Shown here in pieces: positions 16,387 through 49,649 of a stretch of 64,000 nt of DNA. The notes beneath the pieces were generated by a model. That model had not been told where the DNA came from. It ran no database searches and saw only the letters and a list, made by a program, of their open reading frames with translations. The position numbers and the translations under genes are program-made. This DNA is from Escherichia coli (GTDB lineage Bacteria; Pseudomonadota; Gammaproteobacteria; Enterobacterales; Enterobacteriaceae). The stretch lies in NCBI RefSeq assembly GCF_016026235.1, contig NZ_CP065613.1; one strand, 5' to 3'. The first letter of the stretch is position 1. Every line of letters starts with the position of its first letter.

Positions 16387-16392
16387 GTTTAG

Positions 16393-16417
16393 CCGGATAA
16401 TGCATTGGATCCGGTTT
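16393..16417 (+). terminator. Hairpin CCGGAT...ATCCGG followed by TTT after malT
   Basis: Short inverted repeat read in the 42-nt gap between convergent malT and rtcA; weak stem. Confidence 0.35.
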
Positions 16418-16428
16418 ACATCTTTACA

Positions 16429-17448
<1,020 letters not shown>

Positions 17449-18675
17449 TTATCCTTTTACGCACACCACCTGACGCAGGGTGTAGATAACTTCCACCAGA
17501 TCGCTTTGTGCCGCCATCACCGCATCAATATCTTTATACGCCATCGGGATTTCGTCGATCACTTCGGCATCTTTACGGCATTCCACATGCGCGGTAGCAC
17601 GAATTTGATCTTCCACGCTGAACAGTTTTTTCGCTTTAGTACGGCTCATTACCCGCCCGGCACCGTGGCTGCACGAACAGAACGACTCTTCATTTCCCAG
17701 CCCACGGACGATAAAGCTTTTTGCTCCCATCGAACCGGGAATAATTCCATATTGACCAGCACGCGCAGACACCGCGCCTTTACGCGTCACGTAGATCTCT
17801 TCACCAAAGTGCTGTTCTTTTTGCACATAGTTGTGGTGACAGTTGATCTCTTCCATCGCCAGCGTTTGTGGCTGTCTGACCGTTTTCTGCGTAATGCTCT
17901 GCAACGCCGTTACCACGTTTTCCATCATCGCATCGCGGTTAAGGCTGGCGAAAAGCTGCGCCCAGGCCACGGCTCTTAGGTAATCATCAAAGTATTCCGT
18001 ACCTTCCATAAAGTACGCCAGGTCGCGCGATGGCAACGTTTCAAGCTGGTCCTGCATCTCTTTTTGTGCCAAATCGATAAAGTAAGTCCCGATGGCGTTA
18101 CCAATTCCGCGTGAACCGGAGTGCAGCATAATCCACACCTGGTCCGACTCATCAAGGCAGATTTCAATAAAGTGGTTACCCGTTCCCAGCGTTCCCAGGT
18201 GTTTATAGTTGTTAGTGTTAAGGAAACGCGGATATTTTTGCGTTAACCACTGATAACCGGCTTCAAGCTCAGCCCATTTCGCATCGACGTTAACAGGCGG
18301 GTTTTCCCATGCGCCTTTATCACGTTTACAACGGCCAGTGGTACGTCCGTGCGGCACCGCAGTTTCAATCGCCTGACGCAGCTCTGCCAGGTTTTCAGGC
18401 AGGTCTGCCGCCGTTAACGCGGTACGCAGCGCGTTCATTCCACAGCCAATATCCACGCCCACCGCCGCCGGAATAATCGCCCCTTTGGTCGGGATCACGC
18501 TACCAATGGTGGAACCTTTACCCAGGTGTACATCAGGCATTACCGCAATATGTTTGAAAATAAACGGCATCTTCGCCGTATTAATAAGTTGCTGACGCGC
18601 ATCGGCTTCTACCGGCACGCCTTTGGTCCACATTTTTACCGGGGCATTTTCAATGGTCAGTAATTCGTAATTCAT
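17449..18675 (-). CDS. rtcB: RNA-splicing ligase RtcB
   Basis: ORF 17449..18717; start placed at MNYELLTIENAPVKMW giving 408 aa; RtcB family. Confidence 0.9.
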   Translation of the reverse strand: MNYELLTIENAPVKMWTKGVPVEADARQQLINTAKMPFIFKHIAVMPDVHLGKGSTIGSVIPTKGAIIPAAVGVDIGCGMNALRTALTAADLPENLAELRQAIETAVPHGRTTGRCKRDKGAWENPPVNVDAKWAELEAGYQWLTQKYPRFLNTNNYKHLGTLGTGNHFIEICLDESDQVWIMLHSGSRGIGNAIGTYFIDLAQKEMQDQLETLPSRDLAYFMEGTEYFDDYLRAVAWAQLFASLNRDAMMENVVTALQSITQKTVRQPQTLAMEEINCHHNYVQKEQHFGEEIYVTRKGAVSARAGQYGIIPGSMGAKSFIVRGLGNEESFCSCSHGAGRVMSRTKAKKLFSVEDQIRATAHVECRKDAEVIDEIPMAYKDIDAVMAAQSDLVEVIYTLRQVVCVKG

Positions 18676-18711
18676 TTTGTTTTTCTCTTTCGTTGTTTGC
18701 TGTCGTGATAA

Positions 18712-18729
18712 TTGCAACCGTCGTGCCAG
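18712..18729 (-). promoter_or_regulatory. Sigma-54 (-24/-12) promoter of rtcBA
   Basis: Minus strand reads CTGGCACGACGGTTGCAA, a near-perfect TGGCAC-N5-TTGCA element about 37 nt upstream of the rtcB start; divergent rtcR encodes the sigma-54 activator. Confidence 0.8.
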
Positions 18730-18862
18730 AAAATTAAATAAGCAGATTAATTTTTTAATTCATTGTTTTTAAATAGGTTAAATCTTTACGTCCGTAAACG
18801 GAGATTTTCCACAAAACCAATTCACCGATAATGAAATATCGTCTTTTATAAGGATATCTAAG

Positions 18863-20461
18863 ATGCGTAAAACAGTGGCTTTTGGCTTTGTCGGAACGGT
18901 GCTGGATTATGCCGGGCGCGGCAGTCAGCGCTGGTCGAAATGGCGTCCGACACTCTGTTTATGCCAGCAAGAATCGTTGGTCATCGATCGACTGGAATTA
19001 TTGCATGACGCCCGCTCGCGCTCGCTATTTGAAACGCTTAAACGCGATATCGCCAGCGTTTCGCCAGAAACAGAAGTGGTGAGCGTTGAGATTGAACTGC
19101 ATAACCCGTGGGATTTCGAAGAGGTTTACGCTTGCCTGCATGATTTCGCCCGTGGTTACGAGTTTCAGCCAGAAAAAGAAGACTATTTAATTCACATTAC
19201 CACCGGCACCCACGTCGCGCAGATTTGCTGGTTTCTGCTGGCGGAAGCGCGTTACCTGCCCGCCCGGCTGATACAATCTTCACCTCCGCGCAAAAAAGAA
19301 CAGCCGCGCGGCGCAGGTGAAGTGACGATTATCGATCTCGATTTAAGCCGTTATAACGCCATCGCCAGCCGCTTTGCCGAGGAACGCCAGCAAACGCTTG
19401 ATTTTCTTAAGTCCGGCATTGCCACGCGTAACCCCCACTTCAACCGCATGATTGAGCAGATCGAAAAAGTGGCGATCAAATCCCGCGCGCCGATTCTGCT
19501 TAACGGTCCAACCGGCGCGGGCAAGTCATTTCTGGCGCGACGCATCTTCGAGTTAAAACAGGCGCGGCATCAGTTTAGCGGCGCGTTTGTGGAAGTGAAC
19601 TGCGCCACCCTGCGCGGCGATACCGCCATGTCGACGCTGTTTGGTCATGTAAAAGGCGCGTTTACCGGGGCGCGGGAATCTCGTGAAGGTTTATTACGCA
19701 GCGCCAACGGCGGAATGTTGTTTCTTGATGAGATTGGCGAACTGGGCGCAGACGAACAGGCAATGCTGCTTAAAGCCATTGAAGAAAAAACCTTTTATCC
19801 GTTTGGCGGCGATCGCCAGGTGAGCAGTGATTTTCAGCTTATCGCCGGAACGGTGCGTGATTTGCGCCAGCTGGTTGCCGAAGGAAAATTTCGCGAAGAC
19901 CTGTACGCGCGGATCAATCTCTGGACCTTCACCCTGCCGGGGCTGCGCCAGCGCCAGGAAGATATTGAACCTAACCTGGATTATGAAGTGGAGCGCCACG
20001 CCTCACTCACTGGCGACAGCGTGCGTTTTAACACCGAAGCGCGGCGTGCCTGGCTGGCCTTTGCGACATCTCCCCAGGCAACATGGCGCGGTAACTTTCG
20101 CGAGCTTTCTGCCAGCGTCACGCGGATGGCTACCTTTGCCACTAGCGGACGCATCACTCTGGACGTGGTTGAAGATGAGATAAACCGTCTGCGCTATAAC
20201 TGGCAGGAGAGTCGCCCCTCCGCGCTTACGCAGCTACTGGGCGCAGAGGCAGAAAACATCGATCTCTTCGACCGTATGCAACTGGAACACGTTATCGCTA
20301 TCTGCCGCCAGGCAAAGTCGCTTTCCGCAGCCGGACGCCAGCTTTTTGACGTTTCGCGCCAGGGCAAAGCCAGCGTCAATGACGCGGATCGGCTACGCAA
20401 ATACCTGGCGCGTTTTGGTCTGACGTGGGAAGCATTGCAGGATCAGCACAGCTCCAGTTGA
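18863..20461 (+). CDS. rtcR: Sigma-54-dependent transcriptional activator RtcR (N-terminal CARF-like sensor, AAA+ domain)
   Basis: 532 aa; AAA+ sigma-54 interaction region with GAFTGA-type loop (VKGAFTGA). Confidence 0.9.
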
Positions 20462-21217: not shown

Positions 21218-22060
<843 letters not shown>

Positions 22061-26269: not shown

Positions 26270-27787
26270 TTAAGGTAGCGTCTTATACATCGGGACATAA
26301 CCTACATCTTCCACCAAACTCTGTCCCTGCGGCGTTAAAAACCACTCCAACAATTTTTGTGTCTCTGACGTCGTATTTTCCCGCGTTACCATAAAGGCAT
26401 CGACGATATAGGGATATTTGCCGTTGCGAATGTTTTCGGCAGTCGGTGCAATACCGTTAATCGCTAGCAGTTTTATATTTTTATCGGCGTTCATTTGTGT
26501 TGCGTAATAACGGAAGGTGTAACCTATTGCGTTGTTTGTATTACGGTATTCGGCAACGACTTTAATCATTCCCTCCATCATACTTGCCACTTCTGTTTCC
26601 TGCGGCGAGATCATGCGGACATTTTTCATGACCTGGGATTGCATCACCGTCTGGCTGCCAGAGTCTTCCGGGCGCTGCCAGGTCTGGATCTCCTGATCGT
26701 TACCGCCAACAGTACGCCAGTTGGTAATTGCACCACTGAAAATGTCACGCACCTGTTGTTCAGTCAGGGAATTAACCGGATTATCCGCATTGACGATGAA
26801 AACGAATGCTTCACGGGCAAAGGGGGTGTACAGCAAAGTGACACCAGATTCCTTTGCACGTTTTTTTTGCCCACCGGAAGGTTGCGCCACAAAAATAATA
26901 TCAGCATCGCCCTTAACGATTTTGTTATATGCTTCTGGCGTACGAGAGTTTTCCAGATAATCCCAAACGTGAAAATCCTCTGGTATTACACTTAATGCAT
27001 AAAATGCAGAAGCATAAATTGGGTACGCAGCCGTGGCGCCATCGATTCGCGGCCAGTTTTGCCTAAACTGAATTTGCGGTTTGCCACGCAGTGGCGTCAG
27101 TCGATTATTGAGTTTATCGGGTCGCCAGGCCCAGATATCAATATTTTCGCGTACACCGACACCAGGATTTTGCTGCTTATATAAATGGGCCTGATACCCA
27201 GCGACAATACCAAGTAAGAGAAGTAGAAACAGGAGTAAGTTACGGCAACGTAGTCCGGACGTGCCGGATAAAGGATATCTGGTCGGCCAGGCGTATCCCA
27301 GCGAAAAACTGATATGCGCCCCAACGGGAATAATGACCATCCACCAGTACTCACCACCCACTAATGAGACTAAAAAAACGCCCAACCAGGGAAGCATAAG
27401 GTTTGCCAACCAACCAGCTCCCATCTGGCGAAATTGATAATCTGCCAGATGTAGCGTGATTATCCAGCCAACCAGGGTTAATAGCGCGGGTAAGAGAAAA
27501 AAGCATTGCCGCCAGACGGCTATTTCTCTGTTTTCTGGCGCGCTATCACCGGCCCACACGCGACCAGAGAAAAATATTATTACCGCCCCCAGCGTCAGCA
27601 TAAAGACGTTGAGTAGAAGATAAATTGTTGGCGTGATAAGGATATTACAAACTTCAATAATACCGGTAAGCCCGACACCCAGCATGGCAACAACCGCTGC
27701 CAAAAATTGCGCCAGTATGGGGATGCCGAAAAAAGTCATTATCAGCGAGGTCAAAATCCATTTTCTATTTGGCATCATTCTGTCCAT
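26270..27787 (-). CDS. Membrane-anchored PstS-like (phosphate-binding-protein fold) protein; 1st gene of the accessory operon
   Basis: 505-aa ORF; N-terminal about 200 aa with 5-6 hydrophobic helices, C-terminal about 280 aa with PstS-like segments (GATAAYPIY, AIGYTFRYYA, TNWRTVGG); AGGAAG Shine-Dalgarno upstream. Confidence 0.65.
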   Translation of the reverse strand: MDRMMPNRKWILTSLIMTFFGIPILAQFLAAVVAMLGVGLTGIIEVCNILITPTIYLLLNVFMLTLGAVIIFFSGRVWAGDSAPENREIAVWRQCFFLLPALLTLVGWIITLHLADYQFRQMGAGWLANLMLPWLGVFLVSLVGGEYWWMVIIPVGAHISFSLGYAWPTRYPLSGTSGLRCRNLLLFLLLLLGIVAGYQAHLYKQQNPGVGVRENIDIWAWRPDKLNNRLTPLRGKPQIQFRQNWPRIDGATAAYPIYASAFYALSVIPEDFHVWDYLENSRTPEAYNKIVKGDADIIFVAQPSGGQKKRAKESGVTLLYTPFAREAFVFIVNADNPVNSLTEQQVRDIFSGAITNWRTVGGNDQEIQTWQRPEDSGSQTVMQSQVMKNVRMISPQETEVASMMEGMIKVVAEYRNTNNAIGYTFRYYATQMNADKNIKLLAINGIAPTAENIRNGKYPYIVDAFMVTRENTTSETQKLLEWFLTPQGQSLVEDVGYVPMYKTLP

Positions 27788-27870
27788 TCTTCCTGAATGA
27801 CGGAATTATACTCCCCGAGAACCCTCGCCCCCTCTGGACACTTTTCCGAAATGATGGCGAAAAAAAACGG

Positions 27871-27882
27871 GACCCTTTGGCC
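27871..27882. repeat. IS4 target-site duplication, copy 1 (GACCCTTTGGCC)
   Basis: Identical 12-mer directly abuts both IS4 termini. Confidence 0.85.
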
Positions 27883-29308
27883 TAATGCCAGTCAGTTAAG
27901 CAACTGACTGGCTCTTTTTCGGGGCTGTGGGGTATTTCCAGGGCCTCTCCTTTACCACTCTCGGGAAGGCCCTTCCCCTTCTCGTCGGTAATTTCACAAG
28001 TTGTCCCATACTTGCAAGATCGCGCATCAGCTCCGGTATACGTCCCGGTGAAGCGCCCTGCAATGTCATCAGCATTCTCATCACCATTCCGCATGATTCT
28101 GAGAAACTCAGTTGATTCGGCCAGTAACCTTTCAGATGTTCCGCCATTTTAATCATCTGATATCTCACCAGATTATAAGCCAGTAAGACACCCCACAGCT
28201 CTTGCTCCACAAGCTCCGGCTTTTTACTTCTCAGCGTCAGCCTGCTCAGTTGCATCGTCTGTTTTATCTCCCTGTATCCCAGTTCGATTTCCCAGCGATG
28301 ACTGTACAGATCCGCCATTTCTCCTCCGGGGAAGCGCATGGCGTCCGTCATCGACGTCAGCAGATGGCAGACTTTTCCTTTGCGCGTCACGGTCAGCAGG
28401 CGGGCTGTCACTTCATTTCCCAGTCCCGGCCACTTTTTTCGTGCCTGCGGGCTGGTTTTCAGCTTCACCAGATGATCGCCTTTACCCAGTTTTCTGAGCT
28501 CTTCATATTGCGCTCCCTTTCTGAGAGGTATCATCCAGTGGCGGTGTTCTCCCGCCAGGCTCCAGGCATTTAACAGTCCCAGTGAGTAATAACCTTTATC
28601 CATTAACGTCAGAGTGTTATCGCCGGTTTGTTCTATAAGTTGCTCAGCAAGCTCATTTTCGCTGTTCTTCATCGTGCCGAAGGCTGCAGCCGTCAGCAGA
28701 TGGCTGGTCAGTTCCATCTGGCAGACCATTTTGACCTGCGGGTAGAGCGCCGGGTTCCCGGCATGTGTCTGGCGGGGGAAGGCTGCATCGTTCTCTGGTG
28801 TATCCGGTGTGCGCCAGAACACACCATCGATGGCCAGCAGGGTCAGGCCGCACCAGTGCGGATGCGGCGTGGCGTTATGCCAGAGCTGCGCTGTTTTCGT
28901 GAACACGCGGCGGACAGCCTCACTTCCCAGGCGCTGGCGGGCCTGAATAACGGCACTGGGGGCAACGAAGGGGCGATTGCCCGGCAGCATGATGTCCAGG
29001 CGATTCACAATCTGGTGAAGAGGTTCTTTACGCTCAAGCGCCATGCCAACAATACACCAGACCATCATTTCGAGGGGAAGACGGCGCTTGCGTAGCGTTA
29101 CAGTACCTGATTCGGCAAGGCAACGAGAGATGAGTTCGGGGTCGAGGTAATCCCCCAGAGAAGTCAGTGGGTTACGCAGAGAATCGTAACGGGATACCAG
29201 ATCAAGAGCCTGTCCAATGTGCATAAAAAAATCCGGAAACAAGTGAGCGTTTCCGGATTCTTACACAGCCACTGGATCGGTCAACTGATCCTTAACTGAT
29301 CGGCATTA
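27883..29308 (-). mobile_element. IS4 insertion sequence (1426 bp) with imperfect terminal inverted repeats
   Basis: Termini TAATGCCAGTCAGTTAAG (27883) and the reverse complement of TAATGCCGATCAGTTAAGG (29308); single IS4-family DDE transposase ORF inside; flanked by a 12-bp direct repeat. Confidence 0.9.
27896..29224 (-). CDS. insG: IS4 transposase (DDE)
   Basis: ORF 27896..29242; 442 aa from [14 protein letters not shown], matching the IS4 transposase as I recall it. Confidence 0.85.
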
Positions 29309-29320
29309 GACCCTTTGGCC
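29309..29320. repeat. IS4 target-site duplication, copy 2 (GACCCTTTGGCC)
   Basis: Identical to 27871..27882. Confidence 0.85.
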
Positions 29321-49555: not shown

Positions 49556-49649
49556 AAAAAAAAAGCCAGCACCCGGCTGGCTAAGTAATACTGGAAGCAA
49601 TGTGAGCAATGTCGTGCTTTCAGGTTCTCCGCGAGGGTCTTCCTGATCA
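49556..49649 (-). ncRNA. ryhB: RyhB iron-responsive small RNA
   Basis: Minus strand reads GTGATCAGGAAGACCCTCGCGGAGAACCTGAAAGCACGACATTGCTCACATTGCTTCCAGTATTACTTAGCCAGCCGGGTGCTGGCTTTTTTTTT, matching RyhB as I recall it apart from one base near the 5' end; terminator hairpin plus U-tract. Confidence 0.9.

What the first reader, a model, noticed from the sequence alone, without database searches (positions are those of the whole stretch)
18676..18862. rtcBA sigma-54 promoter with divergent CARF-type activator RtcR
Read from the sequence: a near-consensus -24/-12 element (CTGGCACGACGGTTGCAA on the minus strand) lies upstream of rtcB, and the 14-codon N-terminal extension of the six-frame rtcB ORF would overlap it, supporting the shorter start. 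This is the known RtcR-controlled RNA repair module; it is noted because RNA repair loci of this kind are often co-opted in stress and phage responses and it lies about 20 kb from the accessory islands.
Basis: partly seen in the sequence, partly recalled or inferred. Interest (0 to 1): 0.25.

Follow-up and report, generated by a model that had tools for sequence, protein, structure and literature searches.

The report
Known sigma-54 promoter of rtcBA
This is the already characterised sigma-54 promoter of the E. coli RNA-repair operon rtcBA, sitting next to the gene for its activator RtcR, so it is real and intact but ordinary.

Summary
Window 18676-18862 is exactly the rtcB/rtcR intergenic region. 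An exact TGGCAC-N5-TTGCA element lies at 18728..18713 on the minus strand. The six-frame rtcB ORF begins at a TTG (18717) inside the -12 box. The same 17-mer is a sigma-54 ChIP-seq site in E. coli K-12 and is listed there as an experimentally confirmed promoter. A 32-nt core is identical in at least 4,048 complete E. coli genomes. A divergent -24/-12 element sits 142-176 bp from the rtcR start in 16 of 18 RtcR loci from other bacteria. RtcR here is a full-length CARF / AAA+ (GAFTGA) / HTH activator, and RtcB and RtcA are intact. The shorter rtcB start is right: the TTG is in frame only in this allele, because of a 1-nt deletion in the leader. I added a predicted start at C18702, a conserved IHF-type site centred at -60, and a candidate RtcR enhancer at 18826-18841 (CGATA-N6-TATCG) next to the rtcR start codon. 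The enhancer is inferred from comparison only. I found no link to the accessory islands or to phages. Verdict: supported, already known, low interest.

The parts
16429..17445 (-). rtcA, RNA 3'-terminal phosphate cyclase (338 aa), second gene of the operon
   Evidence: Pfam RTC 270.5 bits. NCBIfam equivalog NF003247 783 bits against a cut-off of 333. PGAP annotation of a 99.94%-identical genome. His308 is present.
17449..18675 (-). rtcB, RNA ligase (408 aa), first gene. The rtcB stop codon is followed directly by the rtcA start (TAAATGATG).
   Evidence: Pfam RtcB 445.7 bits. PGAP uses the start at 18675. His337 and the gene junction were checked. The Klebsiella orthologue starts with the same MNYEL.
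18676..18702 (-). Predicted 27-nt rtcB leader. The predicted transcription start is C18702 (A18703 = -1).
   Evidence: Numbering follows from C18714 = -12. The same position comes from the ChIP-seq paper's rule of 19 bp downstream of the motif centre (PMC4591121). The ApC primer and ATP used for the native promoter fit the sequence A-C-A here (PMC9650030). The start was not mapped in this strain.
18713..18717 (-). -12 element TTGCA (G18715 and C18714 are -13 and -12). TTG 18717-18715 is the false start of the 422-aa six-frame ORF.
18723..18728 (-). -24 element TGGCAC (G18727 and G18726 are -25 and -24)
   Evidence: The 17-mer is identical to K-12 sigma-54 ChIP-seq site OS35.
18707..18738 (-). 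32-nt promoter core TTTAATTTTCTGGCACGACGGTTGCAATTATC
   Evidence: Invariant in 8 diverse E. coli alleles. Identical in 4,048 complete genomes, one copy each.
18756..18768 (-). Candidate IHF site AAACAATGAATTA, centred at -60 (one mismatch to WATCAANNNNTTR)
   Evidence: Exact consensus matches lie on the same strand at -50 to -62 in Superficieibacter, Iodobacter, Accumulibacter and three Pseudomonas loci. PMC9650030 refers to an rtc IHF site without giving its sequence.
18826..18841 (.). Candidate RtcR enhancer (UAS): palindrome CGATA-N6-TATCG, spanning -124 to -139 and ending 21 bp before the rtcR ATG. This is inferred, not demonstrated.
   Evidence: It is the conserved block across Enterobacteriaceae genera. 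GATA/TATC is the most enriched 4-mer. Pairs 10 nt apart occur in 9 of 13 loci against 0.20 expected. The pattern occurs once in the window. Hold-out loci L033 and L034 carry TATC-N6-GATA in the same place.
18853..18858 (.). A further GATATC palindrome between the rtcR ribosome-binding site (AAGGA 18850-18854) and the ATG. It may be a second enhancer half-site pair.
   Evidence: It is invariant in E. coli but absent in Klebsiella and Intestinirhabdus.
18863..20461 (+). rtcR, sigma-54 activator (532 aa): CARF 1-186, AAA+ 187-354 with Walker A at 215, GAFTGA at 265 and Walker B at 285, then a C-terminal DNA-binding region

Best explanation
The region is the divergent control region of the E. coli RNA-repair operon. 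RNA polymerase carrying sigma-54 binds the -24/-12 element (GG at 18727/18726, GC at 18715/18714) as a closed complex. RtcR is made from the divergent gene. It is held inactive by its N-terminal CARF domain until an RNA-damage signal is sensed; published candidates are tRNA fragments ending in a 2',3'-cyclic phosphate, with RtcA and RtcB also contributing. Active RtcR then oligomerises on an upstream enhancer. DNA bending at an IHF site near -60 brings RtcR to the polymerase. ATP hydrolysis, acting through the GAFTGA loop, opens the promoter. Transcription starts at about C18702 and produces a 27-nt leader followed by rtcB and rtcA. The 14-codon TTG extension is not translated, because its first codon lies in the promoter upstream of the transcription start. 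Shown here or in published K-12 and Salmonella work: the motif, sigma-54 occupancy of this exact sequence, dependence on RtcR and rpoN, and the gene identities. Inferred here: the exact start in this strain, the IHF site, and the enhancer. I place the enhancer at the GATA/TATC palindrome 18826-18841; because it overlaps the rtcR 5' region, it might also autoregulate rtcR.
For: The consensus match is exact and unique in the window. The identical 17-mer CTGGCACGACGGTTGCA is K-12 sigma-54 ChIP-seq site OS35, on the rtcB strand, and is marked experimentally confirmed in EcoCyc (PMC4591121). The Salmonella counterpart TGGCACGCTGGTTGCAAT is sigma-54-bound and drives sigma-54-dependent expression (PMC3844500). 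Dependence on RtcR and sigma-54, and repression by the CARF domain, are reported in PMC5175333 and PMC9650030. The 32-nt core is invariant in 8 alleles and identical in 4,048 genomes, although the 341-bp segment spanning the intergenic region (18600-18940) is at least 99% identical to the window in only 150 genomes. In 16 of 18 RtcR loci from Gamma- and Betaproteobacteria and Desulfobacterota, a divergent -24/-12 motif has its -12 C 142-176 bp from the rtcR start (149 bp here). This holds whether the first gene is rtcB, rsr, an SPFH gene or rtcA. RtcR domains, GAFTGA motif and CARF fold. The in-frame TTG is allele-specific. IHF and enhancer comparisons.
Against: Nothing contradicts the core reading. 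There are limits. The transcription start and sigma-54 occupancy were not measured in this strain. The original mapping paper (Genschik et al. 1998, J Biol Chem 273:25516) could not be read here. The native promoter is reported to be very weak in vitro despite its consensus match (PMC9650030). RtcB is not fully abolished without rtcR (PMC5175333), so some other transcription exists. The enhancer assignment rests on comparison only. The loci compared are phylogenetically related. The orientation of the half-sites differs between clades, and the four Desulfobacterota loci lack the exact 10-nt spacing.
Confidence: 0.95

Rival explanations
1. The motif is a sigma-54 binding site that is transcriptionally inert or merely a chance match, and rtcBA is driven from another promoter.
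For: An exact match turns up by chance in about 11% of shuffled windows. Many E. coli sigma-54 sites are inactive under laboratory conditions (PMC4591121). The native promoter is weak in vitro. Residual RtcB is seen without rtcR.
Against: The site is listed as an experimentally confirmed promoter. RtcR-dependent reporters built from 175 nt upstream of rtcB work. The motif is conserved in position and orientation in 16 of 18 distant RtcR loci. No sigma-70-like promoter was found in 18500-19000.
Confidence: 0.02
2. The longer 422-aa ORF starting at TTG 18717 is the real rtcB, and transcription starts further upstream.
For: The extension is open and in frame in this window.
Against: The in-frame relation exists only because of a 1-nt deletion in an A-run of the leader. 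In 7 of 8 E. coli alleles the TTG is 43 nt from the ATG and so out of frame. The TTG is part of the invariant -12 box. PGAP and the orthologues start at MNYEL. The Pfam match needs none of the extension.
Confidence: 0.01
3. The conserved GATA/TATC block next to the rtcR ATG is not the RtcR enhancer. It would instead be the rtcR sigma-70 promoter or leader, or the site of another regulator, and the true enhancer lies elsewhere, for example at the TTTACG-N2-CGTAAA palindrome 18785-18798.
For: GATAAT (18827-18832) resembles a -10 hexamer on the rtcR strand. The block overlaps the rtcR 5' region. The orientation of the half-sites varies between clades. The TTTACG palindrome is perfect and lies at about -90.
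Against: Exact 10-nt phasing occurs in 9 of 13 loci against 0.20 expected, with 0-3 loci at every other spacing from 4 to 15 nt. The palindromic form is typical of dimer binding. The TTTACG palindrome loses its right arm in E. albertii, E. whittamii and Escherichia sp. MOD1, and it is absent in other genera although RtcR is 81-97% identical there.
Confidence: 0.4

Closest known systems
E. coli K-12 rtcBA promoter with divergent rtcR (Genschik et al. 1998; sigma-54 ChIP-seq site OS35 in PMC4591121)
   Same: Same locus and same gene order (malT-rtcA-rtcB / rtcR-glpR). The 17-mer -24/-12 element is identical, and so is the 32-nt core. The predicted start falls at the same place relative to the motif.
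   Different: The 4.1-kb locus is about 97% identical to K-12. This allele has C instead of G at -3 and a 1-nt shorter leader, 27 nt against 28 nt. That deletion accidentally puts the -12 TTG in frame with rtcB.
Salmonella Typhimurium rsr-yrlBA-rtcBA promoter (Prsr) with divergent rtcR
   Same: The sigma-54 element is homologous: TGGCACGCTGGTTGCAAT against TGGCACGACGGTTGCAAT, 16 of 18 positions. The activator and its divergent arrangement are the same.
   Different: In Salmonella the promoter is followed by rsr (a Ro60 homologue) and two Y RNAs before rtcBA. E. coli goes straight into rtcB, and Rfam finds no RNA family in this locus. The rsr-first arrangement is seen here in Superficieibacter and Calditrichia loci.
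pspF / pspABCDE divergent sigma-54 system of E. coli
   Same: The layout is the same: an activator gene divergent from its target operon, an IHF site between enhancer and promoter, and an activator controlled by inhibition of its AAA+ domain. This analogy rests on established knowledge and on PMC9650030.
   Different: PspF has no sensory domain and is inhibited in trans by PspA. RtcR carries a cis-acting CARF domain. Overlap of the RtcR enhancer with the rtcR promoter, and autoregulation, are only inferred here.
CARF-domain effectors of type III CRISPR systems (Csm6, Card1, Can2, Csa3)
   Same: The predicted RtcR N-terminal domain has the same fold. The top 49 PDB matches are all CARF proteins, with Foldseek E-values down to 3e-7.
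   Different: The domain is fused to a sigma-54 AAA+ activator rather than to a nuclease. No CRISPR-cas genes are annotated in the window. Published work found no activation by cyclic oligoadenylates.

Membership tests
sigma-54 (-24/-12) promoter | GG and GC doublets exactly 10 nt apart within TGGCAC-N5-TTGCW | tested here: met
   Exact match at 18728..18713 on the minus strand, the only one in 64 kb.
sigma-54 (-24/-12) promoter | Oriented towards, and close upstream of, the regulated gene, with the transcription start about 12 nt downstream of the GC | tested here: inconclusive
   Orientation and distance fit: -12 C at 18714, predicted +1 at 18702, ATG at 18675. The ApC primer and the ChIP-seq prediction agree. 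The start was not mapped in this strain, and the original mapping paper was not readable.
sigma-54 (-24/-12) promoter | Occupied by sigma-54 holoenzyme and dependent on rpoN | not testable with these tools
   Published for the identical K-12 sequence (ChIP-seq site OS35) and for the Salmonella homologue.
sigma-54 (-24/-12) promoter | Cognate enhancer-binding AAA+ activator with a GAFTGA loop | tested here: met
   RtcR has Sigma54_activat at 172.8 bits, GAFTGA at 265-270, Walker A at 215 and Walker B at 285.
sigma-54 (-24/-12) promoter | Upstream enhancer (UAS) bound by the activator | tested here: inconclusive
   The candidate CGATA-N6-TATCG at 18826-18841 is supported by conservation, enrichment and 10-nt phasing. 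There are no binding data.
sigma-54 (-24/-12) promoter | IHF site between enhancer and promoter (common, but not obligatory) | tested here: inconclusive
   A one-mismatch site at 18768..18756 is centred at -60. Exact consensus sites occupy the same position in six loci from four other genera. An rtc IHF site is mentioned in the literature without its sequence.
RtcR (CARF-AAA+-HTH activator) | Passes the curated equivalog model over its full length | tested here: met
   NCBIfam NF038308 scores 850.5 bits against a cut-off of 650, covering residues 1-527. PADLOC RtcR--CARF_AAA_HTH scores 883.7 bits, covering 2-526.
RtcR (CARF-AAA+-HTH activator) | N-terminal domain with a CARF (Rossmann-like) fold | tested here: met
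   Pfam RtcR domain scores 287 bits. The AlphaFold model of residues 1-186 has mean pLDDT 85.6. Its top 49 PDB matches are CARF proteins.
RtcR (CARF-AAA+-HTH activator) | C-terminal helix-turn-helix DNA-binding domain | tested here: inconclusive
   The full-length models cover the C-terminus. No separate HTH family was reported by Pfam at E <= 0.001.
rtcBA RNA repair operon | RtcB ligase with its catalytic histidine and RtcA cyclase with its catalytic histidine, co-oriented and tightly linked | tested here: met
   Pfam and NCBIfam hits. His337 in RtcB and His308 in RtcA are present, and the rtcB stop abuts the rtcA start. The residue numbers are those of the catalytic mutants in PMC5175333.
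rtcBA RNA repair operon | Divergent rtcR next to the operon | tested here: met
   The same arrangement is seen in 14 of 18 related loci, in which rtcB and/or rtcA lie on the opposite strand upstream of rtcR.

The most novel reading that the evidence does not exclude
The RtcR enhancer, which none of the papers I could read defines at nucleotide level, is a set of helically phased GATA/TATC (GATAAT-like) half-sites 10 nt apart. They lie 125-170 bp upstream of the sigma-54 start, directly in front of the rtcR start codon. RtcR bound there would activate rtcBA and, at the same time, sit on its own promoter or leader and autoregulate. The whole layout (enhancer, IHF site at about -60, -24/-12 element, and a fixed spacing of about 150 bp to rtcR) would be conserved from Gamma- and Betaproteobacteria, and partly into Desulfobacterota.
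Probability: 0.45. Interest if true: 0.25.

Novelty: already known. Interest (0 to 1): 0.07.

Why it matters
It matters little as a discovery. The promoter, its sigma-54 and RtcR dependence, and the CARF-type sensor are published for E. coli K-12 and Salmonella. The check is still useful for annotation. It fixes the rtcB start at 18675. It shows that the in-frame upstream TTG is an allele-specific accident. It shows that the locus is intact in this strain, whereas about one in nine complete E. coli genomes have lost it. The comparative layout gives a concrete and cheap target for defining where RtcR binds DNA, which is a missing piece in models of Rtc regulation.

Tried and rejected
1. The perfect palindrome TTTACG-N2-CGTAAA (18785-18798, about -90) was my first enhancer candidate. 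I rejected it because the right arm is lost in E. albertii, E. whittamii and Escherichia sp. MOD1, and the palindrome is absent in Klebsiella, Intestinirhabdus and Superficieibacter.

2. A sigma-70 promoter scan of 18500-19000 found nothing, so neither the rtcR promoter nor any back-up rtcB promoter could be placed.

3. Rfam at gathering thresholds found no RNA family in the locus. There are no Y RNAs as in Salmonella; the only hit in the window is RyhB, about 31 kb away.

4. The original paper, Genschik et al. 1998, is not held. The main text and supplements of PMC9650030 mention a UAS and an IHF site but give no sequences. PMC7790460 and PMC9879122 give no enhancer sequence either. A literature search for an RtcR binding motif found nothing relevant.

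5. A sequence search of the PDB matched only the AAA+ part of RtcR, so I tested the CARF fold by structure prediction instead.

6. The phage and defence angle gave little. RtcB and RtcA have no PADLOC match. Only two viral contigs encode an RtcR-type CARF domain, both at contig ends.

7. I first assumed the window was FDAARGOS_943. It is only 99.94% identical to that genome and differs by IS elements.

Full report
WHAT IS IN THE SEQUENCE

Window 18676-18862 is exactly the 187-bp gap between two divergent genes. On the minus strand a 408-aa ORF starts at ATG 18675 and is followed by a 338-aa ORF. On the plus strand a 532-aa ORF starts at ATG 18863. The minus strand at 18729..18712 reads CTGGCACGACGGTTGCAA. 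TGGCAC (18728-18723) and TTGCA (18717-18713) match the sigma-54 consensus TGGCAC-N5-TTGCW exactly.

This is the only exact match in the 64 kb. The chance expectation is 0.13, and 11 of 100 shuffles gave at least one match. With one mismatch allowed, the count of 3 is what chance gives. The motif alone is therefore weak evidence. Its place and orientation inside a 187-bp gap next to a sigma-54 activator gene carry the argument.

The six-frame ORF list gives rtcB as 422 aa from TTG 18717. That TTG is the first three bases of the -12 TTGCA.

THE GENES

- The first minus-strand gene is RtcB (Pfam 445.7 bits). The second is RtcA (Pfam RTC 270.5 bits; NCBIfam equivalog 783 bits against a cut-off of 333).
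- The catalytic histidines used for the published mutants, RtcB His337 and RtcA His308, are present. The rtcB stop codon abuts the rtcA start (PMC5175333).
- The plus-strand gene is RtcR. It scores 850.5 bits on the NCBIfam equivalog (cut-off 650) and matches the PADLOC model RtcR--CARF_AAA_HTH over its full length. It has the Pfam RtcR N-terminal domain and the Sigma54_activat domain, with Walker A at 215, GAFTGA at 265 and Walker B at 285.
- The PDB holds no RtcR sensor domain detectable by sequence. I therefore predicted residues 1-186 from a 17-sequence alignment (mean pLDDT 85.6). The top 49 PDB fold matches are all CARF proteins, including Csm6, Card1, Can2, Cam1, Cad1, ring nucleases and Csa3. 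The label "CARF-type activator" holds.

GENOMIC CONTEXT

The window is E. coli chromosome with the gene order feoABC ... malPQ, malT, rtcA, rtcB / rtcR, glpR, glpG, glpE, glpD ... glg ... gnt ... ugp ... liv. This comes from the annotation of a 99.94%-identical genome, FDAARGOS_943. The rtc locus is core genome with conserved synteny. It is not part of an island.

EVIDENCE THAT THE MOTIF IS THE WORKING PROMOTER

1. The identical 17-mer CTGGCACGACGGTTGCA is sigma-54 ChIP-seq site OS35 in K-12. It is assigned to rtcB and marked experimentally confirmed in EcoCyc (PMC4591121).
2. The Salmonella counterpart TGGCACGCTGGTTGCAAT matches at 16 of 18 positions. It is sigma-54-bound and sigma-54-dependent (PMC3844500).
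3. Reporter work shows RtcR- and sigma-54-dependent activation from 175 nt upstream of rtcB. The CARF domain acts as the repressive module (PMC5175333 and PMC9650030).
4. From my own recollection of its abstract, Genschik et al. 1998 mapped the transcription start and named the TGGCA and TTGCA boxes. I could not read that paper here.
5. Within E. coli, TTTAATTTTCTGGCACGACGGTTGCAATTATC is invariant in eight alleles that differ elsewhere in the gap. The 32-mer is identical in 4,048 complete genomes, one copy each. By contrast, only 150 genomes are at least 99% identical to the window over the 341-bp segment spanning the gap (18600-18940).
6. I scanned one genome per species with RtcR and obtained 18 true RtcR loci. 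In 16 of them a divergent -24/-12 motif, with both GG and GC and at most 2 mismatches, has its -12 C 142-176 bp from the rtcR start. The distance here is 149 bp. A seventeenth locus (Calditrichia) has a TGGCAC-N5-TTGAT variant about 210 bp away. One GC-rich Desulfovibrio locus has none.
7. The first gene after the promoter differs between loci: rtcB, a Ro60/rsr homologue, an SPFH-domain gene, or rtcA. The promoter therefore travels with rtcR, not with a particular first gene.

START SITE AND THE rtcB START CODON

With C18714 as -12, the doublets fall at -25/-24 and -13/-12, and +1 is C18702. The ChIP-seq paper's rule of 19 bp downstream of the motif centre (18721) gives the same base. Its leader of 28 nt for K-12 becomes 27 nt here. 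The dinucleotide ApC plus ATP, used to prime the native promoter at -1/+1, fits A18703-C18702-A18701 (PMC9650030).

The TTG of the long ORF lies 15 nt upstream of this start. The eight-allele alignment also shows that the window carries a 1-nt deletion in an A-run of the leader (CGAAAGAG instead of CGAAAAGAG). Only in this allele is the TTG 42 nt from the ATG and therefore in frame. In the other seven alleles it is 43 nt away. PGAP and the Klebsiella orthologue start at MNYEL. The shorter start is right, and the extension is an accident of this allele.

THE REST OF THE CONTROL REGION (INFERRED)

My first enhancer candidate was the perfect palindrome TTTACG-N2-CGTAAA at about -90. It is not conserved even in E. 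albertii, so I dropped it.

Two blocks are conserved across Enterobacteriaceae genera. One is the -24/-12 element. The other lies next to the rtcR ATG and contains CGATA-N6-TATCG (18826-18841; -124 to -139).

The evidence for this second block comes from 13 non-redundant intergenic regions:
- GATA/TATC is the most enriched 4-mer: 42 observed against 20 expected, z = 5.2, present in all 13.
- 37 of the 42 copies lie within 70 nt of the rtcR ATG.
- Pairs exactly 10 nt apart occur in 9 of 13 loci against 0.20 expected. None of 2,000 shuffles reached this, and every other spacing from 4 to 15 nt gave 0-3 loci.
- The pattern occurs only once in the 64-kb window.
- Two viral-collection contigs that were not used to form the idea carry TATC-N6-GATA in the same place, together with a TGGCAC-N5-CTGCT promoter and an rsr-like first gene.

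An IHF-consensus site lies on the same strand, centred at -50 to -62, in all Gamma- and Betaproteobacterial loci except Intestinirhabdus. It is exact in six loci from four genera and has one mismatch here (AAACAATGAATTA, 18768..18756).

This gives the classical layout of enhancer, IHF bend and -24/-12 element. Because the candidate enhancer ends 21 bp before the rtcR ATG, RtcR bound there may also regulate its own gene. This part rests on comparison of related sequences. The half-site orientation varies between clades, and the Desulfobacterota loci do not show the 10-nt spacing. I put it at roughly even odds.

THE ISLAND AND PHAGE REMARK

Accessory segments do exist in the window. Hypothetical genes and a PstS-like gene lie at about 24.2-29.3 kb. 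A DprA-like gene and a RecQ-family gene lie at about 40.9-44.2 kb. An Hcp-like cluster lies at about 50.5-52.9 kb. Nothing ties any of them to rtc. RtcB and RtcA match no defence-system model. An RtcR-type CARF domain was found in only 2 of 2.9 million viral contigs, both at contig ends.

VERDICT

The feature is the already known rtcBA sigma-54 promoter with its divergent activator. Interest is low. The only new material is comparative: the allele-specific frame of the upstream TTG, the fixed spacing between promoter and rtcR across phyla, and a testable proposal for the RtcR enhancer and the IHF site.

Noticed in passing
window about 16846-20077, compared with L032 (NZ_CP051615.1) and L003: About 570-590 of 5,426 complete E. 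coli genomes lack the promoter. In the example I examined, an O25b:H4-ST131 strain, a deletion of about 3.2 kb fuses the 3' end of rtcA to the 3' end of rtcR. It removes rtcB, the promoter and most of rtcR. Five other low-ranking genomes show the same 21% coverage. One other genome lost the promoter through an IS1 insertion and deletion.
   Followed up: partly
window 16408-16761: 44 plasmid records in the E. coli collection carry a fragment similar to rtcA. One example is an ETEC plasmid, 89% identical over about 350 bp.
   Followed up: no
window 18694-18697 (A-run of the rtcB leader) and 18705: This allele has a 1-nt deletion in the leader and C instead of G at -3, relative to the other seven E. 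coli alleles compared (one of which shares the C at -3). The deletion creates the in-frame 14-codon TTG extension.
   Followed up: yes
window 27013-29309 and about 52.9 kb: The window is 99.94% identical to FDAARGOS_943 but not the same strain. That genome has an IS2 at 27013 and an IS5 near 52.9 kb which the window lacks. The window has about 1.4 kb of other sequence at 27882-29309. glpG (21218-22048) is intact here but is annotated as a pseudogene there.
   Followed up: partly
window about 40.9-44.2 kb: A DprA-like gene and a frameshifted RecQ-family helicase gene lie between yhgN and gntU, according to the FDAARGOS_943 annotation.
   Followed up: no
window 49557-49621 (minus strand): RyhB small RNA (Rfam 83.1 bits), the only Rfam family found in the window.
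   Followed up: no
window 20443-20461: The 3' ends of the convergent genes rtcR and glpR (DeoR/GlpR-family regulator) overlap by 19 bp.
   Followed up: no
L017-L019 (Pseudomonas), L026, L020, L021-L022: The gene placed directly behind the RtcR-linked sigma-54 promoter varies. It is an SPFH/Band 7 protein in Pseudomonas sp. GD03944, a Ro60/rsr homologue in Superficieibacter and a Calditrichia MAG, and rtcA ahead of rtcB in Desulfobulbus and Desulfovibrio.
   Followed up: partly
window 16391-16417: A short hairpin (CCGGAT ... ATCCGG followed by TTT) lies in the 42-bp gap between the convergent malT and rtcA genes. It may be a shared terminator, but the terminator scan did not call it.
   Followed up: no
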